DNA of 64,000 bases from the NCBI GenBank assembly GCA_000002445.1, contig CM000207.1:192001-256000 (forward strand), written 5' to 3'. The notes below the pieces were generated by a model. It made no database searches. It was not told where the DNA came from and worked only from the letters and a program-made list of their open reading frames with translations. Below, one piece after another: positions 5,779 to 60,624 of the stretch; positions within the stretch are counted from its first letter, which is position 1, and every line of letters starts with the position of its first letter. The translations under genes were made by a program, and so were the position numbers. Source of the DNA: Trypanosoma brucei. Its lineage: Eukaryota.

Positions 5779-7260
5779 ATGAAGAGAAACAAAGAGCTCA
5801 TGTTACTTCTAGTAGCGTTAGCACTTTGCTGCGTAACCAGCAATGCTTCTCACGACGACAGCAATACATTTGCCTTCAACAGCGACACCTGGTGCGCGGA
5901 AGCAAAATATCTGCGCAATACGCTAGCAGCCATAGATCTGGAGCGGCAAGAGAGGCTCAAAACGATCCAAGCCAACGAGCGACGGCTGTGCAGCTGGCAG
6001 ATAGCATCTGCGGCTGAAGCTAACATAAACAAGCAGACAGCTTACACTGTTCTCTTAGCAATAGGCGCTGGTGTAAAACTAAAGGCAGCGAAAAACGCAC
6101 ACCAGCTAGAAAGAGCCGAGGAAAAAGCGAGTAAACTAAACCAAACCATACTAGAAAAACTGGCGACTATAGAAGGGAAAAAAGCAGCGCACCAAGCTGC
6201 AATAAAGCCGTCAGCAACTAACAGCGGTAACAGAGACGCCGTAGCACGTGCAATTAAACTGCTGAAACGAGCACAAGTTCAAAAAGTGTGTGCAGAAAAA
6301 TCAACAGCCAGAGATGGCGTGGTCGAAGTCCGCACACTGCTTAAAACAGCAACGCGCGTCAAGCTTTTTGACAAATTGGCAGCCGCCGCTTACATCAACA
6401 ACGGAGAAGTCGGGCTAACCACGATGAGCCGACAAACATGTGAGTCGCCGGCGGGCGGCGCTACATGCCAAACGACCAGCCGCAGCAAGACGTCATTTAC
6501 GCTCAAGTAAATACCTGGCCCAATCCCCGAGACAAGCGCCGCTAAAGTAGCAACACACGAACTAGCCGCATCCAGCAACAAAGAGCCCACTGAAAGCGAC
6601 GGTATATTCAAGGTATACCAACTAACAGGAAAACACCTAGAAAAAGTACTACATACACTGCGAAATCACCTAAGGAAGGAATCAACGGACTTAAAAAAAT
6701 TGACGCTCTCAGCCGTCACACAAAGCCCAGCCATACAGGAGATAGGACGAAACATCCTTATGGCAAACCCAGGCGGAGCCAAAATAGAGGCAGTGCCAAC
6801 AGCAGACAACCTGGACGCACTGCTAAAAAAGTATTTCGAAAAAGATGCAGCAACATACGACAAGAATTTTTTAACAGGCTTAGACGCCAAAGACATTAGC
6901 GTAAAACCGTCAGATACAACAGAAGCGAAACCAATAAGCTTTTTATGTCAGCCGGAAAACTTCGTAAAAGCAATTACTTATTTAAAAGGCCAAAGTCTCA
7001 AAAAGCAAGCAGTAAAAGAAGTGATTAAGATTTCTACAACATCGAAAGCGATCTGCAACGACAGAAAGAAAAATGATGGTACCAAAGAGAGTAAATGAGA
7101 ATGGGAAGGAACTGAAGACAAAGGAACTTGCAAACCTAAAAATGAAGAAGACGGAGTGAAAGCAGAGAATGATGGAAAAACAAACACAAACACCACAGGA
7201 AGCAATTCGTTTGTCATTAATACGGTTCCTTTTTTGTTTACACTTTTGCTTCTAGCTTAA
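5779..7260 (+). pseudogene. VSG pseudogene. A single continuous reading frame of about 493 codons is interrupted only by two in-frame stops (TAA 6508-6510, TGA 7096-7098).
   Basis: Signal peptide MKRNKELMLLLVALALCCVTSNAS, then N-terminal domain, C-terminal domain and GPI signal NTTGSNSFVINTVPFLFTLLLLA*. All segments share frame 1 (mod 3) with no frameshift. Confidence 0.8.
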
Positions 7261-7339: not shown

Positions 7340-7355
7340 TGATATATTTAAACAC
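7340..7355 (+). promoter_or_regulatory. VSG 3'UTR 16-mer (tgatatatttaaacac).
   Basis: Close match to the 16-mer consensus, downstream of the VSG stop at 7260. Confidence 0.8.
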
Positions 7356-7519: not shown

Positions 7520-7680
7520 CTTAATAGTAATATAGTAATAGTAACGACTATTAAGGATATTATAACAGTAACAGTAATATTATAATAAGAGCAGTAATAA
7601 TAATAATAAATGATTATGATAGTGATGATAATAGGAGAGTGTTGTGAGTGTGTATATACGAATATTATAATAAGAGTTGT
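7520..7680 (+). repeat. 70-bp repeat block (about 2 units).
   Basis: (TAA)n tracts plus gataataggagagtgttgtgagtgtgtatatacgaatattataataagag. Confidence 0.85.
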
Positions 7681-10699: not shown

Positions 10700-11209
<510 letters not shown>

Positions 11210-11309
11210 NNNNNNNNNNNNNNNNNNNNNNNNNNNNNNNNNNNNNNNNNNNNNNNNNNNNNNNNNNNNNNNNNNNNNNNNNNNNNNNNNNNNNNNNNNN
11301 NNNNNNNNN
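11210..11309. other. Assembly gap (100 N).
   Basis: Run of n characters in the sequence. Confidence 1.
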
Positions 11310-11524: not shown

Positions 11525-11601
11525 CCCTGGCGATGCCGGCCACCTCAACGTGGTTCCAGGGTCCAGTACCCCGTATCATCGGGGGAAGCCAAGAGCCAGC
11601 A
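11525..11601 (+). promoter_or_regulatory. Pr77 internal promoter / HDV-like ribozyme hallmark at the ingi 5' end.
   Basis: The first 77 nt match the conserved trypanosomatid retroposon 5' signature (established for L1Tc/ingi). The ORF ATG at 11533 lies inside it. Confidence 0.7.
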
Positions 11602-14600
11602 GCGTTCCTTTCATGGGGAACACTGCTTTGCTCCGGCTACAGCATCATACAGCACAAGGATCAGCAGCGTCTTGCTGGGACACCGTTTTTCATTTGTCGG
11701 TCCCTGGGCACGCGCCAGCGTACCATCAGCAGTATCATCCGCACTAAGATGCTGCTGTCCGGTGATGTGGAAGAGAATCCCGGCCCGTCGTTGCGCGGGA
11801 TGCAGTGGAACTGCGCCGGGCTATCTCAAGGAAAGAGATTAGCACTCCACAAAACCCTTGTTGATGAGCGGATCGCCTTTTGTCTGTTGAGCGAGACAAG
11901 GATGACGCCTGGAGAGGCGGCTTGCTTTAGCGTTGCTGGCTACCAACATCACGAAATAGCTCGTAACTGCAAAGGAGGTGGTGTATCAATACTAGTGAGG
12001 GAGGACCTACCAGTCGAGACCGGTATGGCCGTTGTTGGTCGCATTGAACAAGTGCATGCAACAATTCACCTTGCACGTGGAACGGCGCTGACTGTCACGT
12101 CGGCATACATCCCACCAAAACACACCTTCACGGCAACTGACCTAGATACGCTTCTGACGACTGACGGTGCCCAGCTCTCATCGGTGCAGACGCTAACGCA
12201 CACGCGTTGGCATGGGATCGCGCGAACCCACCAAATACCAAGGGTGAAACCCTCACACAGTGGTGCATTGACAACCAGTTTCTGGTCTGCAACACTGGTG
12301 AGTGCGCCATTTACACACGCCACCACGGGGAGTCCACCCCTGATGTGACACTGTCAAGGAATTGTACAGTGTACACGTGGACATCGCTGTATTCTCCCGA
12401 TAGCGATCACCATCACATATTTTTCGACGTTATCGTTGTAGACGACACAGATGCACTGAGTTGCCCGCGGCTTCGAAAGCCCATGTACGCATGGCTAAAA
12501 GCTAACTGGAGGAATTTCCGTCTCAAGGTTGACGAGCTCTGCAGGAAAATTGGTAGAGAGAAGAACGTCAACACCCTGGAACAGAAATTGAGCTCCGCCA
12601 TCCGCATTGCAACGAAGGTCTCCGTCCCCCGTGGCTGCAGAGTAACGCCACCACATTGGACACCTGAGCTCGCGAAACTCGATGAAGAGATCGCTGGATG
12701 CGGACCCTCCCACCGAAGGGAAAAGTTGGTAACCACGCGTAAGCAGATCCTGGACCGTACCACAAAGAAGAGATGGAGCACGCTATGCTCCAGACTTGCG
12801 GTGTCAGACCGCTGCAGTTGCCACATTGTCAAGAAGGTATATGCGCCACGACCACTAACCACACCGGCTGTACTTGTTGATAACGCGGCCATCACGGACT
12901 ACCGTCAAGCTGAGAGGTTCATTAAACTGTACTCGTCCCGCGCAAGAAGGCACCCCGACTCACACCCACCGGCACCAATAAAGACGATAGCGAGTGAGTT
13001 CAGTCTCATCACGATGGCTGAACTACGGAGATCGATCAAACTGCTACCGAGTGGATCCGCAGCCGGACCTGATTGCTTATACAACGAGGCACTGAACATC
13101 TCGGTAGAACAGCGCTGAATGTTGTTCTGAAGCTATTCTATGAAAACATACGAACGGGAGTCGTGCCGTCTGCATGGAAGATCGGTGTTATCATCCCCAT
13201 CCTGAATGCCGGAAAAAAGGCGGAGGACCTCGATTCTTACAGGCCTGTAACGCCCACGAGCTGTCTCTGCAAAGTCATGGAGCGCATAATTGCCGCGAGG
13301 CTTAGAGACACTGTTGAGTCCCAGCTGACGACGCAGCAATCAGGCTTTTGCCACGGATGCTCAACGCTCGAACAACTCCTGCACATCCGCGCTGCCCTCT
13401 GCCGTCCCACGCACCAATATCGTACGGGTGCTGTATTCGTTGACTACGAGAAGGCATTCGATACAGTAGACCACGACAAAATTGCGAGGAAAATGCACAG
13501 AATGAAGGTATCACCCCACATTGTGAAGTGGTGCGTATCATTTCTGAGTAACCGAACTGGCAGAGTGAGATTCAAGGAGAAGATTTCCAGCAGCAGAACA
13601 TTTGAGCGAGGAGTCCCACAAGGAGCTGTCCTTGGCCCAATCATGTTCATTATTGTCATGAACTCGTTGAGCCAGCGCCTTGCAGAAGTGCCGTTGCTGC
13701 AGCACGGATTCTTTGCAGACGACCTGACGCTACTTGCGAGGCACACAGAGAGGGATGTCATCAACCACACACTACAATGCGGTCTAAACGTGGTGTTACA
13801 GTGGTCAAAAGAGTACTTCATATCTGTCAACGTAGCGAAAACAAAGTGCACACTCTTCGGGTGTACAGAGCGCTATCACCTTACATTACAACTGGACGGC
13901 GAAAGAATAGGAGCTGACAGGACACCGAAGCTTCTAGGAGTAACATTCCAGTGTCTGCAGGGGATGGCAACACATGCGGCCGAAACGAGACGCAAGATGG
14001 ACTTCAGACTACTGCAGATAGCAGCCATCTCAGCTTCTACATGGGGGCCAAGACGACAAGTGTTGAGAGCTTTTCATCTGGAACTCGTACAGGCACACAC
14101 CATGTATGGCATTGAGGTATGGTACTGGGACGCTTCGAAACGAAATCGCGACCTCCTTGCATCAGCACAACACAAAGCCAGTCGCATCATAGCTGGCATA
14201 CCGCATGGGACGCGCAAAGAGGACTCTCTGCTGGAAGCAAACCTCCTGCCACTCAAGACGACCACTCTTGTGCGCAGCATGAAATTCATGCTGATGTGTG
14301 AGTCACGAGGCGGATGTTTGCGGCGCAGTGCTGAAGAAGTATACCACAGCAAACACCCAGTCAGAGTCTTACATTCCCGCATCATGCTGTCCTACCCCCA
14401 CCTCCGCATTGAGCCACGCGAGCAACCACTAGAGACATCGACGCTCCGCCACAGCTGCCGACCGCTATTTCACACGCAGATAAAGCCTGTGTGCGCTGAT
14501 GACCCTGACGATGTCAAAAGCGAGGCTTCCGAAAAGTGGATTGCACGGCATTTTGCACGGAGGGGGAAGGAGCCACAGCGGCGAGAGCACTACGAATTGT

Positions 14601-16507
14601 GGACTGATGGATGCGTGTCCCTCGGTGAGAAGTCCGGAGCAACTGCCCTGCTCTATAGAAACAACACGCTGATTTGCGCACCCAAAACTGGAGCAGGGGA
14701 ACTCTCATGCAGTTACAGAGCGGAATGCGTAGCATTAGAGATAGGACTGCAACGGCTGCTGAAATGGCTTCCGGCATACAGAAGCACACAGAGCAGGTTG
14801 TCCATCTTCTCTGACTCGCTGTCAATGTTAACAGCACTGCAGACAGGCCCCCTAGCCGTAACGGACCCAATTCTAAGACGACTATGGAGGCTTCTGCTTC
14901 AAGTTCAGAGAAGGAAGATACGTATCCGACTGCAATTTGTGTTTGGCCATTGTGGCGTGAAACGGAATGAGGTTTGTGATGAAATGGCCAAAAAGGCCGC
15001 AGATTTACCACAGTTGCGAGACACATGGATCCCCGACATCATTGCTTATGCGAAGCGAGTGCTTAGGTCGGAAGAAGTCCATGAGAACACTCATAGGTTT
15101 GGTATCACGGGCAACCACTTTACAACAAAACATAAGGAAGAACTGACGAGGGAAGAAGAAACGGCATTGGCACGCTTTCGGGTTGGGTCTTCAAGACACT
15201 ATGGATGGATGTTGCGAAAGATCAACCCGAGTGTGCCTCCACAGTGCCGATGGTGCAACCAGAAACATGCACCGATAGGACCAACAATACAAAAGGCCCC
15301 ACCTGTTGCGACACGCACTCTTCAGAGAACCTCCGAACCGACAAAATGTACGGAATGTGATGCCGCATACCAATGCCGCTCGAGTTCTGTAACGCACATG
15401 GTAAACAAACATGGCTTTGTGCGAGCTGATGCCCTCCGGAGGATCAAATACGGCGATGCAACACCCGCAGTGGATATCCCCCCGGAGCCCCCTCCAGTGG
15501 TGGCGATCGTTCCTCTACCATCGAACACACGAGTCCCGATGAGACCGCAGTTGCTTCATTGTACCATCTGTGCCTCCAAATTCGCAGTGCCAGGCCGACT
15601 ATTACACCACCTTAGAACAATACATGGCATAGGCAGCGGTAGTTGCCGCGTGAAAAGGGGGCGAGAGAACGAGGACTCATTGCAAGGAGATGGTAGAGCC
15701 CCAGCAGCGCCAGCCTCTCAGGATACACGGAAGCTGCCGTTTCAATGTGACCTGTGTGAGGCGAGTTTCGGTACACACTCTTCCCTGTCACTACACAAGA
15801 AATTCAAACATAAGAGCATAGTGACGGAGGACGGTACCGTGGTGGTGGTGCAATTCCCTCGTAAGCGTGCCCGTGAGGGAAACGTTGACGTGCCGGGGAA
15901 AGGCGAGGTGCAGTGTGGTGTGTGCCAAAAAGTGCTCAGTTGCAGGGACTCCCTCATCCGACACTGTAAGGCTTTCCACAAAGGTGAGGGTGTCGAGCTT
16001 AAATGCAGCAAAAGCAAAAAATTTTGTGCCACTGATTCCCCGCATACAAATGCATCCATGTTGGTGTGCCCGACATGCGGAAGGCAGTGTGCTAGCAAAA
16101 CTGGCCTCACCCTACATCAAAAGAAGATGCACGGTATGAAGGTAGAGCGCGCTGTTACCAGCCAACGCGGCGACTGTGAAGAAACGTCGCTGCACTCGAT
16201 GAGCTGTCCCGGTTTGAAGGAGTTACGTGTCAGGTTTGCGGTGGAAGGTGAGTGTGTGCAGGATATATGCTTCTCCAAAAGGCTGGCGCAGTTTCTCATT
16301 GCGGTTGAACGGAGCCGGCCGCAGGTGAAGTCCTCACCTAAGGTAACAGTCATACAACCCACTCTCCCTTCTGCAACTTCCCCCCTTATTGCCGAGTGTG
16401 GAGCTAGCAGGAAAAGCACCGGATGCAGGAATAGTCCAGACACCCTCAGAGACAGAGGGGGTATGCAGTCAACAAGCAACAAAAACATAAAAAGGGGGAG
16501 AGAATAA
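11533..16507 (+). pseudogene. ingi polyprotein ORF (endonuclease, RT, RNase H, C2H2 zinc fingers), disrupted by only two small indels (near 12180 and near 13085).
   Basis: ORF-track segments 11350-12348, 12207-13118 and 13073-16507. Comparison with the second copy suggests a +2 indel at about 12185 and a -1 indel at about 13087. The DVEENPGP 2A-like motif lies at 11764-11787. Confidence 0.85.
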
Positions 16508-16778
16508 TAAACGAATAACAAAAATCAAAACAAAAGGATTGCTAATTGACATCTTTGGGAGAGTCCGGAGTGGGGGGCTTCTCGCCCCATCTGCTGTATT
16601 CCGTTCAACTGCGGAGCTACAACAAAAATTATAGAGGGAGTGTTAGGATGAATAAAAAAGGGAGACTCTGCCACAGTCGCCAGATCGATAGCATCTCAGG
16701 GCTCTACGGTGATGGTTGATGGCCGCGCCAGTGGGGGGAAACTCTCACGAAGGCACGAAGAAAATTCCAAAAAAAAAA

Positions 16779-29086: not shown

Positions 29087-30667
29087 GTGCCGGCAGATAT
29101 GTGTAAAACCAAAAGCAGCAGCAGCCTAGGAGCCTACACCTTCCTGACGTTAATAACGTTAATAGCTGTTTCCGGCACAGACACGCCAGAAGAAATTACC
29201 AAGGATGCCTGCGGCTCAGCGGCCTTCCTTCGCATAGTCGCGGACACTGTTAAAAGTGGACTTTTAGCAGCTGTGAAGCGAAACAACGAACTGAACAAAA
29301 GACTAGCACAGGCAACGGCAGCAGTACGCAACCAACAAAGGCCGGATCTTGGCAAAGCAGCAATGGCTTTATTGCCAATTCTAGCAAAGAAGGCGGCCGA
29401 GGAGACGTCGGCAGCCCTGGCAATGCCAACAAGGGCATTGCCAGGACTCGTAGCGGCAGCAAATTACAGTGGGCAGCAGCAGGCGCTAGCGGCGCTACTG
29501 ACAACAGAAGTAGCAGACAGCACAACAGGCCAAAGCGACGTGGGAAGCGCAGCCTCAGGGACAGCCAACATCAAATTTAAACTCAGCCAAACCAACGGAC
29601 TCACCTCGTGCGCTAGCAGCGTAAACAAGGCGGCGGACAAACACGCGTCGTGGGCCACAGTCCCAGGCCTAAAAAAATTCAGCATACACTCGCCAGAACC
29701 GGAGGTGTCGGCCAGCGACAACAGGTTTCTGGCGGTTGGCAAAGGCAGCGGCAACGGACAACAATGTGACGTAAATGGAGGAACAAACAAGCAGTTCACA
29801 GTTACAAGCTCACACGTTTGCATAGCAGGCGGCCCTGTATTTTCAGCAGCACAAAAGCAACTAGACGCCGGCACCTCAGGTGACTACGGTCGGGGGCACA
29901 TAAGCAGCTACAGCGAAACCGACGAAGACCATTTCGCCAAGCAGGCGGCGACAGACATCAAAACCGCCGTCAACGCCCTAGCAAGCAGAGCGGGGGCGTT
30001 TGATCCCAACGAACTAAGCAGCTATGACGCCGACCCGGATTTCCAGGCTGCGGTGGGCGCAATCTACGGCAATTTACCCCGAGACAAAGCAACCGGCGAA
30101 GCAAAAAATACAGTATCCAACCTTATCACACAGCATTTTGGAAAGGCGCAAAACTTCAAAAGCAAGATTTGGGACGAAATCGAAAAGCTGAAAGTGCCAG
30201 CAACAGTCCTTGGAGACAAGGCAGAGATGACGCTAAAGGACGTTGACGACATAGGATTAGCTACACATATAATGGTACAACACATTACCGCCAGCTTCCA
30301 AAAGTCAGCACCTCAAGCAGAAAAGCAGCCAGATACCACAGAAGTCAAACCAGGAAAAGCAGAAGAAACGAAAAAAACAGCAGACGAATGCAAAAAGCAT
30401 ACAACAAGTGAAGATTGTAAAAAGGAAAAAGGTTGTGATTTTGTTGAGAAAAAACCGGAAGGTGAAAAATGCTTTCCAAAAGTTGAGACTGACAAGAAAG
30501 ATGAAGAAAATAATGGGAAAGAAAGCTCTGACCGCAAAGATAAGCCTTAGAAAGATTGCACTGGAAACTGCAAATGGGAAAATAATGCTTGCAAGGATTA
30601 TAGTTTTATTGTCAATAAGAAATTTGCTTTGACGGCTGCTACCCTTATAGGTTTGTTAGGATTCTAA
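29087..30667 (+). pseudogene. Near-intact VSG (about 526 codons in one frame) carrying a single in-frame TAG at 30548-30550 in the C-terminal domain.
   Basis: ORF 29087-30550 continues in the same frame after the TAG as KDCTGNCKWENNACKDYSFIVNKKFALTAATLIGLLGF* (stop 30665-30667). No frameshifts were seen. Confidence 0.8.
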
Positions 30668-32854: not shown

Positions 32855-34381
32855 TTGATTAAATACCTTTCACCGCGTACCAGTTTAGGAATAAAAAGAA
32901 TGTCACCAAAGTTAGGGATAGCCCCGACGCTGCTAATCGCTTCACTAACATCACCACGACCAGGCGAAGCAACAGCGGGAAACGCCATCAAGAAAGCAAA
33001 CTGGCAAGCAATATGCAAAGTAACCGCTGACGCAGGAAATCTAGCAGGAATTGCGCTAACGAATATTCGAGCGCCTGCATTGCAAGTGGCGGCTGACATA
33101 AAAGCACTCTTACGCACTTTAATCTACATAGAAGGCAACTCAACCAATGCAGCGACAAAAGCGCAGAGAACAGCAACAGCTTTCCTAGGCGGCCAAACAG
33201 CAGAGAACCTAGAATACTACTCATCAACAAGTGTAGCAACAGACGTAACAACAGCCCGAAACGCCGGCAGGCTGCAAGGAGCAACGCACGAATTCATGTC
33301 TGTACAAGCAGACGGATCAACCTCAGCAAACGGCTGTATCGGCGATGACGAGTCTGGAACCAACGCATTAGCGGGATTCAGCGCCGTCGTAGCGGCAGAC
33401 CCAAACTGTCAGCTCAGCTGGGAAACAGTAACACCGTACGACGGCGCAGTGACAGCCATAACGAAAACGGGACTAAGCGGAAAATTTGCAAATGCCATAG
33501 CGCACAACGAGTTCACAAGCGGAGACAGAAAATGCAACATCAATTCGGACGCAAGCGGATTTAAACTGAGCAACGACGGTACCGGCGTTGACACAGCAGG
33601 GCACAACCCCAAGATGGCCGCAGGGATAATAAGCCTAGACGGAACCAACGGCATTCACACGGTGGCGCTGGCGAACGTCATGACAAACGACGAACACCCG
33701 TACCTCAAAGCGGCAGCAACAGCCGCAAAGCGGGGCAAGCAAACGCCTAAAGCAGCGGACCTCACAACTGCAGATACTGCCTTAGCCTCAACAGGTTTCA
33801 AAAAGGCAGCTCGCAGACACATTCTTGGTAAAAAGGAAACAGCCGATGACAGCGATACCACATTGGCAGCAAAGGTCAAGGAAGCTTTTGGTAGTGACGA
33901 GAGCATCAACAAATTAATATCAACCAACGTAAACGATATGCCTATCACAGGCATACTAAAATACAACACAGATGCCAAAAGCCTAGGCCAAATAACCGAC
34001 ATAAGCGAGCTGCTGCGCTTGTACTTTTACTACTCGGACTTGAACAAACAGAAGCTGGCTGAGACCGCGAAAAAACTTCAAGAGGCAGAATTCAAGAAAG
34101 AGACAAAATCAGCAAAAGAGAAAGAAAAAGAAGGCAATACCAAAGGCAAGGACAAACAAGATGGGTGTGACAAGCTAAAGGACCAGGGATGTGTTTTTAA
34201 CAAAGATGGCAATGATGGTGAAAAGTGCACATTGAAAAAGGAGGCGAAAGAAAAACTGAAAAAAGCAGGCCAAGAAACAGGAGAGAAAGATAGCAAAACC
34301 AGAACCACAAACACCACAGGAATCAATTCTTTTGTCATTAACAAGGCCCCTCTTTTGCTTCCAGTTTTGCTTCTAGCATAA
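32855..34381 (+). CDS. Apparently intact VSG gene (508 aa from the first ATG; the likelier start is the ATG at 32900, giving 494 aa).
   Basis: One uninterrupted ORF: signal peptide MSPKLGIAPTLLIASLTSPRPGEA, N-terminal domain, C-terminal domain (DGCDKLKDQGCVFNKDGNDGEKC), and canonical GPI signal NTTGINSFVINKAPLLLPVLLLA*. A 70-bp repeat lies about 1.8 kb upstream, and a degenerate 16-mer lies downstream at about 34470. Confidence 0.85.
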   Translation: MIKYLSPRTSLGIKRMSPKLGIAPTLLIASLTSPRPGEATAGNAIKKANWQAICKVTADAGNLAGIALTNIRAPALQVAADIKALLRTLIYIEGNSTNAATKAQRTATAFLGGQTAENLEYYSSTSVATDVTTARNAGRLQGATHEFMSVQADGSTSANGCIGDDESGTNALAGFSAVVAADPNCQLSWETVTPYDGAVTAITKTGLSGKFANAIAHNEFTSGDRKCNINSDASGFKLSNDGTGVDTAGHNPKMAAGIISLDGTNGIHTVALANVMTNDEHPYLKAAATAAKRGKQTPKAADLTTADTALASTGFKKAARRHILGKKETADDSDTTLAAKVKEAFGSDESINKLISTNVNDMPITGILKYNTDAKSLGQITDISELLRLYFYYSDLNKQKLAETAKKLQEAEFKKETKSAKEKEKEGNTKGKDKQDGCDKLKDQGCVFNKDGNDGEKCTLKKEAKEKLKKAGQETGEKDSKTRTTNTTGINSFVINKAPLLLPVLLLA

Positions 34382-36248: not shown

Positions 36249-37568
36249 ATGAAGCTTGCAATAGCGTTAGCAACCACCTTAGTGTTGCATGCAGACGTAG
36301 TTGTAACAGATGACTCAACCGTGGAAGGAGCTCTGTCGGGGCCAGCGCTAGGCGCATTATGCGATATAGCACATGATCTCAAGCTTTCACCCAACAAGCT
36401 AAAACAACAATTGCTCAGCAAAACGGAGCAGCTGTTGGACCTGAACCTCAAGCTGAGAATCCTCGACACCTACGACACCTTCGACGACAACACCAAAGCG
36501 GCAATACAAGCTTTACACACGATTCTAACTAACGAAATACTAAACCATTGTAGCGATTTCGAGGCAGCAGCAGGAAAAGAAGTAGTGGCAGCAGAAGCAG
36601 GTGCGTATTGGGCTGGACACATGGACGAGCTGGCACACGTAGCACACCAGCTTACGACAGACACAAGCGACACAGCGGGAACTAACTGCCTCTCGGCAAC
36701 GAGCACAGGCGATAACCAAGGAAACGGCATCAAACACGACGCTCCACTAACGGCGGGCGGCCTATAACGCTGCGCAGAAAACTTCAATCCCAGCCACGGC
36801 GAAACAGTCGGAGAAATCTTAACTGTCAATAAACTAAAAGCAGTAGCATCACAATCCGGCATCTACACGAAAGTCATGGCCAGAACCGACAAATGTCCGC
36901 TAACAAAGTACGACACAGACTCTTTCTATCAAAATGGAGCTTCCCTGACCAAGCTGACTTTTGCAGGGGGAGCGATATCAATGAACAACCCAACAGCGTG
37001 TGCCGTTCCAACAGCTCAGACGCTAGGGATCACGGAAACAGGCACCAGATACGAGCCAATACTGAGCACAGCCCTACACACCGCACTAACGGAGGTCGAC
37101 AGCGCAACCAAACAACTGGGCGGCATCGAACTAGGGGCAACGGCACTCCTCAAGGAAGATGGCTTTGAAGAGGCAAAGACTAACCAAGAAATACAAGCGG
37201 CGCTACACCCTTCTGAGGATGTCAAAACGAAATACTCGAGCGGAATGCCTCAAACAAGCAAACCAGCTTTTGACAGGCTAGTAAAACTTTATAAGGAATT
37301 GGAAGACAAGGTCGAAAAGATAAAACAGGATACCAACCAGGATGCCGCCATACGAAGGCTCTATAAACCCTTGATAAGCTGCAGTAGGGGCCCGGAAGCA
37401 CAGAAAAAAGTGGAGACAACATCAGTATGCGAAGATAAGGAACAAAATGCGTGCTGAGTTATGGAGGGTGATTATGGAAGGGCTCCTAGTGCAAATAAAA
37501 AGGAAAAAAAGATTCCTTTTTCCTTGTAAATAAGAAATTTTCTCTCTTTACTTCTTCGGCTTTTGTGA
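36249..37568 (+). pseudogene. VSG pseudogene. The N-terminal domain sits in one frame with an in-frame TAA (36765-36767). The C-terminal domain is very short or truncated, and the GPI signal is frameshifted.
   Basis: Signal peptide MKLAIALATTLVLHA, ORFs 36249-36767 and 36876-37457 share a frame, and SFFLVNKKFSLFTSSAFVSVEAY* follows in another frame. The 16-mer-like taatatattataccgc lies at about 37666. Confidence 0.7.
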
Positions 37569-37789
37569 GCGTGGAAGCATATTAGTAATTTAAGAATTTT
37601 TTCTCAATTTTGTAAATTTATGAATTTTACTAAAATTTGCTACTTTGAGAGAATTTAATATATTATACCGCTATTGTAAAGTTTTTTTTAACAAATGAAA
37701 ATTATTAAAATTTAAAAATACATAACTTTTTGTATGTGAATAACCTATCGGTAAAAATTAGTAGAGTGATAGTATAGCAAAAATGGGTG

Positions 37790-40426: not shown

Positions 40427-40526
40427 NNNNNNNNNNNNNNNNNNNNNNNNNNNNNNNNNNNNNNNNNNNNNNNNNNNNNNNNNNNNNNNNNNNNNNNNNN
40501 NNNNNNNNNNNNNNNNNNNNNNNNNN
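40427..40526. other. Assembly gap (100 N).
   Basis: Run of n characters. Confidence 1.
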
Positions 40527-40815
<289 letters not shown>

Positions 40816-42294: not shown

Positions 42295-43755
42295 ATGCAC
42301 CACTTTCAACTTCAGTTTTCGTACGTCGCAATATTGCTGATGGTGGCAGCACACGCGATAGCAACCAGCAAAGACTCAAAAGCGGTCACAACAGCCTGTC
42401 ACGAGATAGCTTTCAACGACAAATTGGCAGCAGCGTTCGAACAGAAAATAGAAAAACTGGCAACAAAACCAAGTCAATTACTCAAGGAAGCGGAAGCACT
42501 GGACACAGCTGCATGTCTAGAAACGGACCGTAAGACCAAAACAGCGGCGCGGATGCTAGCGTCAATAGGGCGTTCTAGAGCGGCTGCCACTGAAGCAAAT
42601 GCCGACGCTGTAAAGCAGCTAAAAGCTAGTATCGAAACTGTAAAGCGCAGAAACGCTCAGCTAATGGCGGCAATCGCATTCAACAGCAAAGGCGCTTTTA
42701 CAGTAACACATGATATTTTACGTCAAAAAGCAAATCTAATAGGAGGCGGCGGAGCCAAATCCTGTAGCGTAACAATCGCACAGCCGCCCAGAAACATCCA
42801 CGGCTGCACGGAGCCTACAGCAGACGACAAGAGACTCACAGCCGACGTAGCCAACATTCTAACCCTTGATTCATATCAAGCAATCTCAGACAAGGCTTTT
42901 CAAATAACGGACATAACAGCTGACATCGGCAACAAAGGCGACTACAGCTCGGCCATGCAATTAAACCACGAAAGGCTGATTGCGTGCGTCGGCACTGCGG
43001 ACACAGCCAGAGAACTTGGCAGCGTTGCTAAAGGCATAATCCTAACAAACTTCAACCGCAAAGCGGACTGGAATACGCCGACTAGAAACACGATAAAAAG
43101 CAAAGCAGGCGGTACAGACTTTGAAGACGAACAGGACTCCGACAAGAAAGCTTTTGTCACAGCCAAAGCAGCAGGATATGCCATATGCAATGGCCGCAGG
43201 AAAACCATCACGGAACCAGAGACACTGAGCCAGTCAACTATGGACACACTAAAGGAACAACAAGATGTGCGAGAAGCCGCAATGCTCATAACAGCTGGAC
43301 CAACGGAGGAACTCCCAGACACCGGAAAACAAAAAGAAGCAGTAGTAACACTTCTAGGTGAAGGAAAAAACAACAGTACATGACAAATTCTTAAAGGACT
43401 TGGAAGCAAACAAACTAGATTTCAAAATCGGCAGCAAACACGTTAACAAAGGTATAGCGTCGATAAGTGTTACCGAAGACTATGCAAGACCGATAGGCTT
43501 TTGTTTAGGAGACCAATACAGAAAAGAGAAAGCGCAGAAGAAAGTTGAATCAGTCACAGCAGCAACACCGGAAAAGAACAAAGAATACAAGGGAGAAACT
43601 GACGAGGGCAAATGCAACAATAAGGATGGATGCGAATTCAAAGATGGAAAATGCGAAGCTAAAGTGACAACCACAAAAACACAAACACTACCGGAAGCAA
43701 TTCTTTTGTCATTAACAAGGCCCCTCTTTGGCTTGCAGTTTTGCTTTTAGCATAA
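42295..43755 (+). pseudogene. VSG pseudogene with frameshifts near 43360 and near 43675 (A-rich run).
   Basis: MHHFQLQFSYVAILLMVAAHAIATS signal, N-terminal domain ORF to 43383, C-terminal domain CNNKDGCEFKDGKCEAK, and GPI signal NTTGSNSFVINKAPLWLAVLLLA* in an alternate frame. Confidence 0.75.
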
Positions 43756-49093: not shown

Positions 49094-49463
49094 TTTTTTT
49101 TTGGAATTTTCTTCGTGCCTTTGAGAGAGTTTCCCCCCACTGGCGCGGCCATCAGCTATCACCGTAGAGCCCTGAGATGCTATCGGTCTGGCGACTGTGG
49201 CAGAGTCTCCCTTTTTAATTAAGCCTAACACTCCCTCTATAATTTTTGTTGTAGCTCCGCAGTTGAACGGAATACAGCAGATGGGGCGAGAAGCCCCCCA
49301 CTCCGGACTCTCCAAAAGATGTCAATTAGCAATCCTTTTGTTTTGATTTTTGTTATTCGTTTATTATTCTCTCCCCCTCTTTCTGTTTTTGTTGCTTGTT
49401 GACTGCATACCCCCTCTGTCTCTGAGGGTGTCTAGACTATTCCTGCATCCGGTGCTTTTCCTG

Positions 49464-52400
49464 CTAGCTGCACAGTCGGATAAGGAGAGAAGTTGCAGAA
49501 GGGAGAGTGGGTTGTATGACTGTTACATTAGGGGAGGACTTCACCTGCGGCCGGCTCCGTTCAACCGCAATGAGAAACTGCGCCAGCCTTTTGGAGAAGC
49601 ATATATCCTGCACACACTCACCTTCCACCGCAAACCTGACACGTAACTCCTTCAAACAGGGACAGCTCATCGAGTGCAGCGACGTTTCTTCACAGTCGCC
49701 GCGTTGGCTGGTAACAGCGCGCTCTACCTTCATACCGTGCATCTTCTTTTGATGTAGGGTGAGGCCAGTTTTGCTAGCATACTGCCTTCCGCATGTCGGG
49801 CACACCAACATGGATGTGTTTGTATGCGGGGAATCAGTGGCACAAAATTTTTTGCTTTTGCTGCATTTAAGCTCGACTCCCTCACCTTTGTGGAAAGCCT
49901 TACAGTGTCGGATGAGGGAGTCCCTGCAACTGAGCACTTTTTGGCACACACCACACTGCACCTCGCCTTTCCCCGGGACGTTAACATTTCCCTCACGGGC
50001 ACGCTTACGAGGGAATTGCACCACCACCACGGTACCGTCCTCCGTCACTATGCTCTTATGTTTGAATTTCTTGTGTAGTGACAGGGAAGAGCGTGTACCG
50101 AAGCTCGCCTCACAAGGTCACATTGAAACGGCAGCTTCCGTGTATCCTGAGAGGCTGGCGCTGCTGGGGCTCTACCATCTCCTTGCAATGAGTCCTCGTT
50201 CTCTCGCCCCCTTTTCACGCGGCAACTACCGCTGCCTATGCCATGTATTGTTCTAAGGTGGTGTAATAGTCGGCCTGGCACTGCGAATTTGGAGGCACAG
50301 AGGGTACAATGAAGAACCTGCGGTCTCATCGGGACTCGTGTGTTCGATGGTAGAGGAACGATCACCACCACTGGAGGGGGCTCCGGGGGGATATCCACTG
50401 CAGGTGTTGCATCGCCGTATTTGATCCTCCGGAGGGCATCAGCTCGCACAAAGCCATGTTTGTTTACCATGCGCGTTACAGCACTCGAGCGGCATTGGTA
50501 TATGGCATCACATTCCGTACATTTGGTCGGTTCGGAGGTTCTCTGAAGAGTGCGTGTCGCAACAGTTGGGACCGTTTGTATTGTTAGCCCTATCGCTGCA
50601 TGTTGCGGGTTGCACCATCGGCACTGTGGAGGCACACTCCGGTTGATCTTTCGCAACATCCATCCATAGTGTCTTGAAGACCCAACCCGAAAGCGTGCCA
50701 ATGCCGTTTCTTCTTCCCTCGTCAGTTCTTCCTTATGTTTTGTTGTAAAGTGGTTGCCCGTGATACCAAACCTATGAGTGTTCTCATGGACTTCTTCCGA
50801 CCTAAGCACTCGCTTCGCATAAGCAATGATGTCGGGGATCCATGTATCTCACAACTGTGGTAAATCTGCGGCCTTTTTGGCCATTTCATCACAAACCTCA
50901 TTCCGTTTCACGCCACAATGGCCAAACACAAATTGCAGTCGGATACGTATCTTCCTTCTCTGAACTTGAAGCAGAAGCCTCCATAGTCGTCTCAGAATTG
51001 GGTCCGTTACGGCTAGGGGGCCTGTCTGCAGTGCTGTTAACATTGACAGCGAGTCAGAGAAGATGGACAACCTGCTCTGTGTGCTTCTGTATGCCGGAAG
51101 CCATTTCAGCAGCCGTTGCAGTCCTATCTCTAATGCTACGCATTCCGCTCTGTAACTGCATGAGAGTTCCTCTGCTCCGGTCTTGGGTGCACAAATCAGC
51201 GTGTTGTTTCTGTAGAGCAGGGCAGCTGCTCCGGACTTCTCACCGAGGGACACGGATTCATCAGTCCACAATTCGTAGTGCTCTCGCCGCGGTGGCTCCT
51301 TCCCCCTCCGTGCAAAATGCCGTGCAATCCACTTTTCGGAAGCCTCCCTTTTGACATCGTCAGGGTCATCAGCGCACACAGGCTTTACCTGCGTGTGAAA
51401 TAGCGGTCGGCAGCTGTGGCGGAGCGTCGATGTCTCTAGTGGGTGCTCGCGTGGCTCAATGCGGAGGTGGGGGTAGGACCGCATGATGCGGGAATGTAGG
51501 GCTCTGACCGTATGTTTACTGTGGTATACTTCCTCAGCACTGCGGCGCAAACATCCGCCTCGTGACTCACACATCAGCATGAATTTCATGCTGCGCACAA
51601 GAGTGGTCGTCTTGAGTAGCAGGAGGTTTGCTTCCAGCAGAGAGTTCTCTTTGCGCGTCCCATGCGGTATGCCGGCTATGATGCGACTGGCTTTGTGTTG
51701 TGCTGATGCAAGGAGGTCGCGACTTCGTTCCGAAGCGTCCCAGTACCATACCTCAATGCCATACATGGTGTGTGCCTGTACGAGTGCTAGATAAAAAGCT
51801 CTCAGCACTTGTCGTCTTGGCCCCCATGTAGAAGCTGAGATGGCTACTATCTGCAGTAGTCGGAAGTCTATCTTGCGTCTCGTTTCGGTCGCATGTGTTG
51901 CCATCCCTTGCAGACACTGGAATGTTACTCCTAGAAGCTTCGGTGTCCTGTCAGCTCCTATTCTTTCGCCGTCCAGTTGTAATGTAAGGGGGTGGCGCTC
52001 TATACACCCGAAGAGTGTGCACTTTGTTTTCGCTACGTTGACAGACATGAAGTACTCTTTTGACCACTGTAACACCACGTTTAGACCGCATTACAGCGTG
52101 TGGTTAATGACATCCCTCTCTGTGTGCCTCGCTAGTAGCGTTAGGTCGTCTGCAAAGAATCCGTGCTGCAGTAACGGCACTTCTGCAAGGCATTGGCTTA
52201 ACGAGTTCATGACAATAATGAACATGATTGGGCCAAGGACAGTTCCTTGTGGCACTCCTCGCTCAAATGTTCTGCTTCTGGAAAGCTTCTCCTTGAATCT
52301 CACTCTGCCAGTTCGGTTACTCAGAAATGATACGCACCACTTCACAATGTGGGGTGATACCTTCATTCTGTGCATTTCCCTCGCAATTTTGTCGTGGTCT

Positions 52401-54334
52401 ACTGTATCAAATGCCTTCTCGTAGTCAACGAATACAGCACCCGTACGATATTGGTGCGTGGGACGGCAGAGGGCAGCGCGGACGTGCAGGAGTTGTTCGA
52501 GCGTTGAGCAACCGTGGCGAAAGCCTGATTGCTGCGGCGTCAGCTGGGACTCAACAGTGTCTCTAAGCCTCGCGGCAATTATGCGCTCTATGACTTTGCA
52601 GAGACAGCTCGTGAGCGTCACAGGCCTGTAAGAATCGAGGTCCTCCGCCTTTTTTCCGGCCTTCAGGATGGGGATGATAACACCAGTCTTCCATGCAGGC
52701 GGCACGACTCCCGTTCGTAGGCTCTCATTGAATAGCCTCATTACAACATTCAGCGCTGTTCTACCGAGATGTTGTAGTGCCTCGTTGTATAAGCAATCAG
52801 GTCCGGCTGCGGATCCACTCGGTAGCAGTTTGATCGATCTCCGTAGTTCAGCCATCGTGATGGGACTGAACTCACTCGCTATCGTCTTTATGGGTGCCGG
52901 TGGGTGTGAGTCGGGGTGCCTTCTTGCGCGGGACGAGTACAGTTTACTGAACCTCTCAACTTGACGGTAGTCCGTGATGGCCGCGTTATCAACAAGTACA
53001 GCCGGTGTGGTTAGTGGTCGTGGCGCATATACCTTCTTGACAATGTGCCAACTGCAGCGGTCTGACACCGCAAGTCTGGAGCATAGCGTGCTCCATCTCT
53101 TCTTTGTGGTACGGTCCAGGATCTGCTTACGCGTGGCTACCAACTTTTCCCTTCGGTGGGAGGGTCCGCATCCAGCGATCTCTTCATCGAGTTTCGCGAG
53201 CTCAGGTGTCCAATGTGGTGGCGTTGCTCTGCAGCCACGGGGGACGGAGACCTTCGTCGCAATGCGGATGGCGGAGCTCAATTTCTGTTTCAGGGTGTTG
53301 ACGTTCTTTTCTCTACCAATTTTCCTGCAGAGCTCGTCAACCTTGAGACGGAAATTCCTCCAGTCAGCTTTCAGCCATGCGTACATGGGCTTTTGAAGCC
53401 GCGGGCAACTCAGTGCATCTGTGTCGTCTCCAACGATAACGTCAAAAAATATGTGATGGTGATCGCTATCGGGAGAATACAGCGATGTCCAAGTGTACAC
53501 TGTGCAATTCCTTGACAGTGTCACATCAGGGGTGGACTCCCCGTGGTGGCGCGCGTACCTGGTGCACCCACCAGTGTTGCAGACCAGAAACTGGTTGTCA
53601 ATGCACCACTGTGTGAGGGTTTCACCCTTGGTATTTGGTGGGCTCGCGCGATCCCATGCCAACGCGTGTGCATTAGCGTCTGCACCGATGAGCTGGGCAC
53701 CGTCAGTCGTCAGAAGCGTATCTAGGTCAGTTGCCGTGAAGGTGTGTTTTGGTGGGATGTATGCCGACGTGACAGTCAGCGCCGTTCCACTTGCAAGGTG
53801 AATTGTTGCATGCACTTGTTCAATGCGACTAACAACGACCATACCTGTCTCGACTGGCAGGTCCTCCCTCACTAGTATTGATACACCACCTCCTTTGCAG
53901 TTACGAGCTATTCCGTGATGTTGGTATCCAGCAACGCTAAAGCAAGCCGCCTCTCCAGGCGTCATCCTTGTCTCGCTCAACGGACAAAAGGCGATCCGCT
54001 CATCAACAAGGGTTTTGTGGAGTGCTAATCTCTTTCCTTGAGATAGCCCGGCGCAGTTCCACTGCATCCCGCGCAACGACGGGCCGGGATTCTCTTCCAC
54101 ATCACCGGATAGCAGCATCTTAGTGCGGATGATACTGCTGATGGCACGCTGGCACGTGCCCAGGGACCGACAAATGAAAAACGGTGTCCCAGCAAGACGC
54201 TTCTGATCCGTGTGCTGTATGATGCCGTAGCCGGAGCACAGCAGTGTTCCCCATGAAAGGAATGCTTCTGACTCTTGGCTTACCCCGATGATACGGGGTA
54301 CTGGACTCTGGCACCATGTTGAGGTGGTCGGCAT
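49464..54334 (-). pseudogene. ingi polyprotein ORF, degenerate, with multiple frameshifts or stops.
   Basis: Four ORF segments cover the endonuclease, RT, RNase H and zinc-finger regions. The DVEENPGP coding sequence lies at 54080-54103 on the - strand. Confidence 0.85.
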
Positions 54335-54342
54335 CGCCAGGG
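54266..54342 (-). promoter_or_regulatory. Pr77 hallmark at the 5' end of the inverted ingi.
   Basis: The reverse complement matches the copy-1 5' end with a few substitutions. Confidence 0.7.
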
Positions 54343-59034: not shown

Positions 59035-60624
59035 ATGAAGCATAAATTAGTTAGGATATGTGCTATGGCCTTCATCTTATCAGTCTGGTCCATTTTGGTT
59101 ACAGCGACCGTCGTCGAAGACAGCAATGTCCACGAAAAAGCGGCCCTATGTGGCTTAATTGAGCTCGGAGCCAACAGGGCATTGCTCACCGAAGAGGAAG
59201 ACACCACAACAGGAGCAATCAACAACATAATGGACTTAAACATGAGCCTGTCAGCAGAAACCTGGCAAAAGCTGTTTCGCGAACCTTCAAACCCAGAAAA
59301 CTTCCGCGACTTACCAAAAGGCGAATTTACAGAGAACAAAGACTGGCCGACTAAATGGCCAAGCTGGAAAGCAGCGGGCCAAAGGCTCAAGACAGGTCAA
59401 GCGCACGAAACAATTCAAAAGAAAGCAGGCTTACAGATTGCAGATGATGCAACACTAAAACAAGCCGTCACGGCCGCAGGAAATCTAGCTGACCAGGCGG
59501 CTACACTACAGCAAGAAATAACCGACATCGACAGCAGCGGCCAGCTATTAAAACAACAGCAACTAAGGGAAGCCCTGGACAAGCAGATTTATGGCGCAAC
59601 AACTGAAAACGAAGACGCCGTCGAAGTAGCGACGCTGCTACGAAGCGCACACTCAAGCACACGCCAATAAACCTGCGAAGGCGACACCGCCACGGGCAAG
59701 GTAACGACAGTTCTGGCGGCCATGCTTTGCGTCTGCGGCAAAGACCACTCACCAAGCGGCGACGAAGGCAAGACCTGTTCAGGGAAAACGGCATTAAGTA
59801 ACGCGTGGAACGCAGGTTCGCCACCAACAACCACCGAGTTAGGGGAACTCATAAACCTGTGCGACACAAAGGCTGCAGTACAACTGACATCGTCCGAACT
59901 CCAAACTCGAATCAACAATGTCAAAAAACTTCTAAGGCGAACAAGTAGCGGAACTTACCTGGGCAAGATAGTGGGAGCCAACTGCGACGGCAAAAGCAAC
60001 GGCGGGCTATGTGTAAAATACACCGACATAACAACTGGAGGTGGCATAAGCTTCGATAAAATACCATGGTTAGAGGGGCTGCAGCAACTAGGTAACAAGC
60101 TCAACGAGTCAGAACACGCATATAGCATCAAAAGAGCGCTAGTCCGGAAGCTCAAAACGGTCACGAAGGAACTGGATAATATAGGACAAAAGGCGAGACG
60201 GAGCGCAGCAGCAACGGCTCTGAGCACAGCATCCGAAACACGCCCCCAGAAACCGGCACAGGATCTGAAGACCCAATGTGAGGCACACAATAAATCTAAA
60301 ACAGCATGCTTAGGAGCTAAATGCGCATGGAAAGGACAAAAGGATGATGACGGCCCATGCACTCCAACTGAAGCACAAGTTGCAGAACAACAAGCAACCC
60401 AAGCAGGAACAGGAGATGAAACTGCAGGAACAGGTCCAAATTGAAAGCAATATAATAATCAAGAAGACTGCGAGGCAAGGAATAAACGAGGTGAAAGAGC
60501 TGTTTGCGGGCGGATCACTTACATCAATGGTAAAGGCAAACTTGACCCACAAGAATGCCATGATTTTTCTATTACTGTAAATAAGAAATCGGCTCTGATG
60601 GCCGTTGCTTTTGTAGGTTCGTAA
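59035..60624 (+). pseudogene. VSG pseudogene in a single frame of about 529 codons, with two in-frame stops (TAA 59668-59670, TGA 60442-60444) and no frameshift.
   Basis: MKHKLVRICAMAFILSVWSILVTATVVEDS..., then ...TRQ*TCEGDTATGK..., C-terminal domain CAWKGQKDDDGPCTPTEAQVAEQQATQAGTGDETAGTGPN*KQYNNQEDCE..., and tail ITVNKKSALMAVAFVGS*. Confidence 0.8.

What the first reader, a model, noticed from the sequence alone, without database searches (positions are those of the whole stretch)
5779..7260. Several VSG pseudogenes are inactivated only by in-frame nonsense codons, with the reading frame fully preserved
Four VSGs keep one continuous frame across the whole gene and carry only stop codons. They are 5779-7260 (TAA 6508, TGA 7096), 29087-30667 (one TAG at 30548), 36249-37457 (TAA 36765) and 59035-60624 (TAA 59668, TGA 60442). 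Frame preservation over ~500 codons with nonsense lesions but no indels is a distinctive decay signature. Such genes are ideal substrates for segmental gene conversion into mosaic VSGs, where a short patch repairs the stop. Some trypanosome stop codons could also be read through at low frequency.
Basis: seen in the sequence. Interest (0 to 1): 0.5.

Follow-up and report, generated by a model that had tools for sequence, protein, structure and literature searches.

The report
Ordinary stop-codon VSG pseudogenes in trypanosome array
Three of the four flagged surface-coat (VSG) gene copies of Trypanosoma brucei really are broken only by stop codons with the frame kept, but this is the frequency expected from random decay in a gene archive long known to be mostly pseudogenes, so the finding is real but ordinary.

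Summary
The window is a silent subtelomeric VSG array of Trypanosoma brucei brucei TREU927, chromosome 9. It holds about 16 VSG units on the + strand and two ingi retroelements.

**Observation.** For 5779-7260, 29087-30667 and 59035-60624 one frame runs from signal peptide to GPI signal. The fourth gene fails. Its "end" at 37457 is a lesion, and the rest of its C-terminal domain and GPI signal lie in another frame with three more stops.

**Extra damage.** The three frame-preserved genes are not damaged by stops alone:
- Gene 1 has also lost a conserved C-terminal Cys to Gly.
- Gene 2 has lost one to Arg.
- Gene 4 has a GPI signal four residues short.

**Origin of the stops.** Four can be traced: TGY(Cys)->TGA twice, GAG(Glu)->TAG, and TCA(Ser)->TAA. 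The TGA in gene 4 is apparently shared with its 94%-identical EATRO1125 relative, so it is not a base-calling error.

**Is the class special?** No. Lightly damaged units carry 8 stops and 10 frameshifts. Random assignment predicts 3.06 stop-only genes, and 3 are seen (P=0.75).

VSG pseudogenes "with frameshifts and/or in-frame stops" and their rescue by segmental conversion or 3' donation are textbook knowledge. Frame preservation gives no evident advantage to a DNA-templated patch repair.

The parts
5779..7260 (+). VSG pseudogene 'gene 1' (A-type relatives; short 4-Cys C-terminal domain and 17/18-residue GPI signal). It has in-frame TAA 6508-6510 and TGA 7096-7098, and a conserved Cys replaced by Gly (GGT 7078-7080).
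   Evidence: Searches give the translation and codons. Searches give 40% identity over 98% coverage to VSG 1125.75. The TGA aligns with the invariant Cys of C[EK]WEG in 5 of 5 homologues, and the neighbouring Cys column holds Gly.
7340..7355 (+). Conserved VSG 3'-UTR 16-mer (TGATATATTTAAACAC, one mismatch) downstream of gene 1.
7635..7652 (+). 70-bp-repeat core motif, one example of 15. One lies between nearly every pair of VSG units.
   Evidence: 15 matches against 0.05 expected.
29099..30667 (+). VSG pseudogene 'gene 2'. The ORF 29099-30547 is deposited as EAN76244.1 / XP_803400.1 'VSG, putative'. The in-frame TAG 30548-30550 is followed by 38 more sense codons and the terminal stop, which encode the end of the C-terminal domain and the GPI signal. 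A conserved Cys is replaced by Arg (CGC 30533-30535).
   Evidence: (PF10659 hit spans the stop). In one search the TAG aligns with a Glu present in all 9 comparators, and the Arg sits in the Cys column.
32900..34381 (+). Uninterrupted VSG ORF (493 aa; EAN76245.1). It is the only intact unit in the window and was used as comparator.
36249..37585 (+). VSG pseudogene 'gene 3' (A-type). Lesions: TAA 36765-36767; a frameshift at about 37455-37465 (frame 3 to frame 2); further stops TGA 37469, TAG 37487 and TAA 37496. The GPI-signal block ends at TAG 37583. Its N-terminal ORF is deposited as 'hypothetical protein Tb09.v4.0006'.
59035..60624 (+). VSG pseudogene 'gene 4' (B-type, 8-Cys C-terminal domain). 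It has TAA 59668-59670 and TGA 60442-60444, and a GPI signal about 4 residues short.
   Evidence: P0007 (94% identical) has Ser at the TAA position and ends exactly at the TGA position. The TGA aligns with a Cys in 9 of 9 comparators.
11525..16777 (+). ingi retroelement copy 1, used as the neutral calibrator for the indel:substitution ratio. It abuts the 5' end of VSG unit E.
49094..54342 (-). ingi retroelement copy 2, 96.6% identical to copy 1. It truncates VSG unit N.

Best explanation
These are ordinary full-length VSG pseudogenes in a transcriptionally silent subtelomeric array of T. brucei TREU927 chromosome 9. They are decaying through independent random point substitutions and small indels.

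Nonsense substitutions and frameshifting indels arise at similar rates. Some lightly damaged copies therefore carry one or two stops and no frameshift purely by sampling. The frame is 'preserved' because no indel has yet occurred, not because anything maintains it.

The copies can still matter biologically as DNA templates (inferred from published work, not shown for these genes):
- An intact N-terminal domain such as that of gene 2 can be expressed after conversion into an expression site with the C-terminal end supplied by the resident gene (3' donation).
- Short segments of N-terminally damaged copies can be patched into a related expressed VSG (mosaic formation).
For: **Identity of the locus.**
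- Exact matches of window ORFs to TREU927 chromosome 9 proteins.
- VSG family hits.
- A 70-bp repeat motif between units and the 3' 16-mer.

**Random-decay model.**
- Census of 16 units by a frame-tracking dynamic programme plus inspection: 1 intact, 1 cut by ingi, 3 stop-only, 5 frameshift-only, 6 mixed.
- Lesions in units with at most two lesions: 8 stops and 10 frameshifts.
- Permutation gives 3.06 stop-only genes expected against 3 observed, P(>=3)=0.75.
- Internal neutral yardstick from the ingi pair: 173 substitutions and 4 non-3n indels, i.e. 0.023 per substitution. P(stop | substitution) in these ORFs is 0.03-0.045.
- Gene 4 against its 94% relative shows 29 residue differences, 1 new stop and 0 indels. 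This fits those rates.

**Unconstrained decay.** Conserved C-terminal Cys codons are also lost by missense changes in genes 1 and 2.

**The stops are single-step changes from sense codons.** They are Cys->TGA twice, Glu->TAG and Ser->TAA.

**Literature.**
- Pseudogene donors are rescued by mosaicism or 3' donation (PMC3708902).
Against: - The sample is small: 16 units and 18 lesions in the lightly damaged set. A modest archive-wide excess of stop-only genes cannot be excluded.
- The ingi calibrator may under-count indels if part of the divergence arose in active master copies.
- Lesion calls in the heavily degraded units B and G are approximate. Those units were left out of the test.
- Two of the six internal stops fall on Cys codons, although Cys supplies only about 4% of nonsense opportunity. 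Ancestral codons are only inferable at conserved positions, so this is probably ascertainment.
Confidence: 0.9

Rival explanations
1. Frame-preserving (nonsense-only) lesions are favoured in the silent archive by second-order selection or biased gene conversion. On this view such copies are better donors, so stop-only pseudogenes form a maintained class.
For: - Three genes keep roughly 490-530 codons in frame.
- The TGA of gene 4 appears conserved between TREU927 and EATRO1125.
- The archive is thought to evolve under second-order selection (PMC3467770).
Against: - There is no enrichment in the window: 3 observed against 3.06 expected.
- Frameshift-only units are at least as common, with 5 of them.
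- Mosaic patches are short, about 46 bp, and templated at the DNA level, so the donor's global frame is irrelevant (PMC13233330).
- The same genes carry unrepaired Cys missense lesions.
Confidence: 0.05
2. The stops are sequencing or assembly errors in the reference, and the genes are really intact.
For: - The window has two 100-N gaps, so it is not fully finished sequence.
- No raw reads could be inspected.
Against: - The gene 4 relative from an independently sequenced strain ends its ORF exactly at the TGA position.
- The gene 3 lesion after ...NAC is shared with the chromosome 10 paralogue Tb10.v4.0099.
- The public annotation splits or truncates the ORFs at the same stops.
- The genes carry other defects (Cys->Gly, Cys->Arg, short GPI signal) that base-calling errors at the stops would not explain.
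- Six substitution errors that each create a stop within about 6 kb of Sanger-era sequence is implausible (inference).
Confidence: 0.03
3. The stop codons are decoded (read-through or recoding), so the genes are functional as they stand.
For: - TAG in gene 2 sits at a conserved Glu, and TGA in unit Q at a Trp.
- These are the meanings those codons have in the relative Blastocrithidia (own knowledge). This is only a coincidence of single-step neighbours.
Against: - TGA in genes 1 and 4 replaces Cys and TAA in gene 4 replaces Ser, so no consistent recoding rule fits.
- T. brucei uses the standard code and array VSGs have no promoter (established knowledge).
- In T. brucei, premature termination codons affect translation (PMC8445201).
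Confidence: 0.01

Closest known systems
Full-length VSG pseudogenes of the T. brucei TREU927 silent archive (class defined in the genome paper and VSGdb as carrying 'frameshifts and/or in-frame stop codons')
   Same: - The genome is the same one, with exact protein matches to TREU927 chromosome 9.
- The array architecture matches, with 70-bp repeats, the 3' 16-mer and ingi insertions.
- The lesions are the same kinds.
- About two thirds of array VSGs fall in this class (PMC1868767, PMC3467770, PMC5814966).
   Different: Nothing substantive. One of its members is deposited as 'VSG, putative' truncated at the TAG, and one fragment as a 'hypothetical protein'.
Pseudogene donors of mosaic VSGs and 3' donation (Hall et al. 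2013, PMC3708902; Smith et al. 2026, PMC13233330)
   Same: - 42% of identified N-terminal donors were pseudogenes.
- One documented donor (14-B) has an in-frame TAG.
- Pseudogenes damaged only in the C-terminal domain are expressed by replacing the 3' end. That is the situation of gene 2, whose N-terminal domain ORF is intact.
   Different: - None of the listed donors could be matched to this window. The lowest Tb09.v4 donor number is 0061, against Tb09.v4.0006 here.
- Mosaic use needs a closely related family member. Gene 4 has such relatives (94% and 78% in EATRO1125), whereas the best match for gene 1 is 40%.
Silent pseudogene cassettes of other antigenic-variation systems (Anaplasma msp2, cited in PMC3467770; Borrelia vlsE cassettes, own knowledge)
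   Same: Non-expressible copies serve as templates for segmental gene conversion into one expression site.
   Different: Those cassettes are truncated by design and few in number. VSG pseudogenes are full-length genes that decay by random lesions within an archive of thousands.

Membership tests
T. brucei variant surface glycoprotein (VSG) genes | N-terminal domain of A or B type | tested here: met
   - Gene 3 matches PF00913 (E 1.5e-13) and gene 4 matches PF13206 (E 4.6e-62).
- Gene 1 has no Pfam hit but is 40% identical over 98% of its length to VSG 1125.75 and is related to a PF00913 protein.
- The gene 2 N-terminal domain has no Pfam hit, but the ORF is deposited as a VSG.
T. brucei variant surface glycoprotein (VSG) genes | Cys-rich C-terminal domain with 4 or 8 Cys, followed by a GPI-anchor signal | tested here: inconclusive
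   The domain is recognisable in all four genes, but it is damaged in each:
- Gene 1 has 2 of 4 Cys left.
- Gene 2 has 7 of 8.
- Gene 4 has 7 of 8 and a short GPI signal.
- Gene 3 is frameshifted.

VSGdb treats abnormal Cys counts as atypical (PMC1868767).
T. brucei variant surface glycoprotein (VSG) genes | Array cassette context: 70-bp repeat upstream and conserved 3'-UTR element downstream | tested here: met
   - There are 15 motif hits spaced one per unit, against 0.05 expected.
- The 16-mer with at most 2 mismatches follows six units, including gene 1.
- It was not found at that stringency after genes 2-4.
Full-length VSG pseudogene (genome-paper / VSGdb class) | Full-length gene with at least one in-frame stop and/or frameshift | tested here: met
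A distinct 'nonsense-only, frame-maintained' class of pseudogene | Stop-only genes more frequent than independent random lesions predict | tested here: not met
   - 3 observed against 3.06 expected, P=0.75.
- The expected nonsense:frameshift rate ratio is about 1.3-2:1 from the ingi calibrator.
A distinct 'nonsense-only, frame-maintained' class of pseudogene | All four cited genes keep one frame over the whole gene and have no other lesion | tested here: not met
   - Gene 3 is frameshifted before its GPI signal.
- Genes 1 and 2 have Cys missense losses.
Documented mosaic-VSG donors | Segments of the gene seen in expressed mosaic VSG cDNAs | tested here: inconclusive
   Hall 2013 Table S1 lists no donor that can be assigned to this window. 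The gene identifiers of genes 1 and 4 are not known to me, and no read data could be searched.
Documented mosaic-VSG donors | A closely related family member exists to recombine with | tested here: inconclusive
   - Gene 4: yes, at 94% and 78% in EATRO1125.
- Gene 3: its 3' half is 97-100% identical to Tb10.v4.0099.
- Gene 1: best 40%.
- Gene 2: no usable search, because one search failed.

Protein databases omit most pseudogenes.
Programmed stop-codon read-through / recoding | Translation continues through the stop | not testable with these tools
   There are no expression data. The inferred ancestral residues (Cys, Cys, Glu, Ser) fit no single recoding rule.

The most novel reading that the evidence does not exclude
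Across the whole archive, lesions in VSG pseudogenes might not be random. Stop-only copies, or TGA substitutions at C-terminal Cys codons (seen in genes 1 and 4, and probably in the gene 3 tail), could be over-represented. The cause could be a mutational bias or second-order selection that keeps donors in frame. The single window neither shows nor strictly excludes a modest effect of this kind.
Probability: 0.05. Interest if true: 0.4.

Novelty: already known. Interest (0 to 1): 0.1.

Why it matters
If stop-only pseudogenes were a maintained class, selection would be acting on the form of silent antigen genes. That would bear on how the trypanosome archive stays usable. The evidence here points the other way: the class is the expected tail of random decay in a thoroughly described gene family.

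Some practical value remains:
- One deposited "VSG, putative" protein (EAN76244.1) stops at an in-frame TAG. It lacks the last part of the C-terminal domain and the GPI signal that follow in frame.
- One "hypothetical protein" (Tb09.v4.0006) is the front fragment of a VSG pseudogene.
- Gene 2 keeps an intact N-terminal domain, so it is in principle expressible by 3' donation.

Tried and rejected
- **Concatenated query.** A query joining genes 2, 3 and 4 returned nothing. Non-VSG candidates probably crowded out the word pre-filter, and one capped search was wasted. Gene 2 therefore has no dedicated homologue search.
- **The look-up of encoding contigs.** It was tried for the intact VSG, P0007, the gene 3 fragment and P0017, and none is on record. 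No paralogue DNA could be fetched, so ancestral codons are inferred from proteins plus the single-step rule.
- **Marcello & Barry 2007 (Genome Res).** The paper is not held, so archive statistics are cited through secondary sources.
- **Within-window blastn.** It found no close N-terminal paralogues. Only C-terminal and 3'-flank similarity and the ingi pair came up.
- **CpG signature.** This was rejected. The four inferable changes are all transversions, and none is at a CpG. Four of four transversions is unremarkable (P=0.12-0.49), because most paths to a stop are transversions.
- **Literature search for the EATRO1125 relatives by name.** It returned only irrelevant numeric matches.
- **Not attempted.** Structure prediction and RNA tools were judged irrelevant.

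Full report
**What the window is.**

The + strand carries a tandem series of about 16 VSG units spaced 3-4 kb apart.
- A 70-bp-repeat core motif lies between units: 15 hits against 0.05 expected by chance.
- The conserved 3'-UTR 16-mer follows several units, including the one at 5779-7260.
- Two 5.25-kb ingi retroelements, 96.6% identical, lie at 11525-16777 (+) and 49094-54342 (-).
- Two 100-N gaps lie in (TAA)n tracts.

Exact look-ups identify the source as Trypanosoma brucei brucei TREU927, on a 3,057,547-bp chromosome 9 record:
- ORF 29099-30547 is EAN76244.1 / XP_803400.1, "VSG, putative".
- ORF 32900-34378 is EAN76245.1.
- ORF 36249-36764 is "hypothetical protein Tb09.v4.0006".

**Checking the observation.**

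These are real coding frames. They hold 2-3 stops including the terminal one, against 15-42 in the other sense frames.

Homology crosses the stops in every gene:

| Gene | Evidence that homology spans the stops |
|---|---|
| 1 | 40% identical over 98% of its length to VSG 1125.75 |
| 2 | Pfam C-terminal domain hit 431-519 |
| 3 | Pfam A-type hit 22-328 |
| 4 | Pfam VSG_B hit 23-374 and C-terminal hit 415-527; all 459 residues of its closest relative align with no relative gap |

So for 5779-7260, 29099-30667 and 59035-60624 the claim "one frame, stops only, no frameshift" holds.

It fails for 36249-37457. The TGA taken as the natural end follows ...EDKEQNAC. The rest of the C-terminal motif and the GPI signal (LWKGS*CK*KGKKDSFFLVNKKFSLFTSSAFVSVEAY*) lie in window frame 2. 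That stretch holds three more stops, at 37469, 37487 and 37496, and the gene ends at about 37585. A minor point is that 29087 is a GTG and the annotated start is the ATG at 29099.

**Other lesions.**

Alignment of C-terminal domains shows that the three frame-preserved genes are not damaged by stops alone.
- Gene 1 has Gly (GGT 7078) in a Cys column that is Cys in all five homologues. Together with the stop, it retains 2 of 4 Cys.
- Gene 2 has Arg (CGC 30533) in the column that holds the first Cys of the second subdomain in all nine comparators.
- The hydrophobic GPI tail of gene 4 is about four residues short.

VSGdb regards abnormal Cys counts as "atypical" (PMC1868767). Repairing only the stops would therefore not restore canonical genes 1 and 2.

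**Where the stops came from.**

| Stop | Aligned residue in relatives | Inferred change |
|---|---|---|
| TGA 7096 (gene 1) | Invariant Cys of C[EK]WEG | TGY->TGA |
| TGA 60442 (gene 4) | Cys in 9 of 9 comparators | TGY->TGA |
| TAG 30548 (gene 2) | Glu in 9 of 9 comparators | GAG->TAG |
| TAA 59668 (gene 4) | Ser in the 94%-identical VSG 1125.4721 (P0007), Ala in the 78% relative | TCA->TAA |
| TAA 6508 (gene 1) | Variable positions | Uninformative |
| TAA 36765 (gene 3) | Variable positions (E/A/Q/K) | Uninformative |

All four inferable changes are transversions and none is at a CpG. This is unremarkable, because 59-84% of nonsense-creating changes in these ORFs are transversions.

**Are the stops real?**

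- P0007, from the independently sequenced EATRO1125 strain, ends its ORF at ...GTDPN, exactly where gene 4 has TGA 60442. That stop is apparently old and shared, while TAA 59668 is newer.
- The chromosome 10 fragment Tb10.v4.0099 (P0017) ends at the same ...EDKEQNAC as gene 3.
- The remaining four stops have no independent check. Multiple stop-creating base-calling errors in 6 kb is nevertheless implausible (inference).

**Is "stops but no indels" distinctive?**

I tracked the coding frame through every unit with a codon-usage dynamic programme that charges for stops and frame switches. I then inspected the tails by eye. The census is:

| Class | Units |
|---|---|
| Intact ORF | I |
| Cut only by ingi | N |
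| Stop-only | C, H, P (= genes 1, 2, 4) |
| Frameshift-only | E, F, K, L, O |
| Mixed | D, M, Q, J (= gene 3), and the heavily degraded B and G |

In units with at most two lesions there are 8 stops and 10 frameshifts. Shuffling those labels over the same genes gives 3.06 stop-only genes on average, against 3 observed, P(>=3)=0.75.

An independent yardstick agrees:
- The two ingi copies differ by 173 substitutions and 4 non-3n indels, i.e. 0.023 per substitution.
- A random substitution in these VSG ORFs makes a stop with probability 0.03-0.045.
- Nonsense lesions should therefore be as common as frameshifts or somewhat more so.
- A gene with one or two lesions would then be stop-only roughly 60% or 36% of the time (inference from those rates).
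- Gene 4 against P0007 shows 29 residue differences, one new stop and no indel, which fits.

The caveats are a small sample and an imperfect calibrator.

**Mechanism.**

The best explanation is neutral decay of silent array copies, with stop-only genes as a sampling outcome.

Their known biological use is as DNA templates:
- About two thirds of array VSGs are pseudogenes with stops, frameshifts, deletions or no start (PMC3467770; PMC5814966).
- 42% of the N-terminal donors of expressed VSGs in chronic infections were pseudogenes, rescued by mosaicism or 3' donation. One donor carried an in-frame TAG (PMC3708902).
- Mosaic formation is RAD51/BRCA2-dependent templated repair. It inserts about 46-bp patches from close family members and leaves the donor unchanged (PMC13233330).

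Applied to these genes (inference):
- A donor's overall reading frame is irrelevant to such patches. A stop and an indel are equally local obstacles.
- Gene 2, with an intact N-terminal ORF and only C-terminal damage, is the one most readily expressible, by 3' donation.
- Genes 1, 3 and 4 would need an N-terminal patch from a relative. Gene 4 has relatives at 94% and 78%. Gene 1 has nothing above 40% in the protein database, although pseudogenes are mostly absent from that database.
- Hall's donor table lists nothing assignable to this window.
- Read-through is moot for promoter-less array copies. The inferred ancestral residues fit no recoding rule.

**Verdict.**

The interpretation as a distinctive signature, or as specially suited substrates, is not supported. 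The phenomenon belongs to a class described with the TREU927 genome itself, so it is already known and of low interest.

Noticed in passing
window 36876-37457 vs Tb10.v4.0099 (P0017): The chromosome 10 ORF fragment is only about 30-70% identical to gene 3 per 20-residue block over residues 210-305. Identity then jumps to 97-100% up to the shared ...EDKEQNAC end. This step looks like a past segmental conversion or 3'-end exchange between two silent pseudogenes, and it carried the lesion with it.
   Followed up: partly
window 29099-30550: The public record deposits this ORF as 'VSG, putative' (EAN76244.1, 483 aa) ending at the in-frame TAG. The rest of the C-terminal domain and the GPI signal follow in the same frame, so the deposited protein is a truncated pseudogene product.
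   Followed up: yes
window 36249-36767: 'Hypothetical protein Tb09.v4.0006' (XP_803402.1, 172 aa) is simply the N-terminal fragment of a VSG pseudogene, up to its first in-frame TAA.
   Followed up: yes
window 7078, 7096, 30533, 60442, 37469: C-terminal-domain Cys codons are hit repeatedly: TGA in place of Cys in genes 1 and 4 and probably in the gene 3 tail, plus Cys->Gly in gene 1 and Cys->Arg in gene 2. Cys codons supply only about 4% of nonsense opportunity. Ancestral residues can only be inferred at conserved columns, so ascertainment bias is likely.
   Followed up: partly
window about 18083, 43650-43680 and 57700: In units E, L and O a frameshift lies within roughly 30-80 nt upstream of the block encoding the NTNTTGSNSFVI-type GPI signal. 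In each, the main frame reads the signal out of frame (for example ...TKTQTLPEAILLSL...). Three of about ten frameshifts cluster in this A-rich stretch, which could reflect slippage or a recombination boundary.
   Followed up: partly
window 11525-16777 (+) and 49094-54342 (-): Two full-length ingi elements, 96.6% identical, lie in opposite orientation. One abuts the 5' end of VSG unit E. The other cuts off the C-terminal part of unit N, whose N-terminal ORF is otherwise intact.
   Followed up: partly
window 10714-11309 and 40427-40788: Both 100-N assembly gaps sit inside long (TAA)n/(AAT)n tracts of the 70-bp-repeat regions. The 3' parts of units D and K cannot be fully assessed.
   Followed up: no
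window 34310-34381 and about 57700-57790: The only intact ORF (unit I) and unit O both have Ile instead of the usual Ser at the predicted GPI attachment motif (TTGINSF / TTGINSL against TTGSNSF). Unit I may therefore be 'atypical' rather than fully functional.
   Followed up: no
window 59035-60441 vs P0007/P0008: Gene 4 belongs to a small family with EATRO1125 VSG 1125.4721 (94%) and 1125.2652 (78%). Both deposited relatives are themselves truncated ORFs (459 and 399 aa), so the whole family may be pseudogenic across strains.
   Followed up: partly
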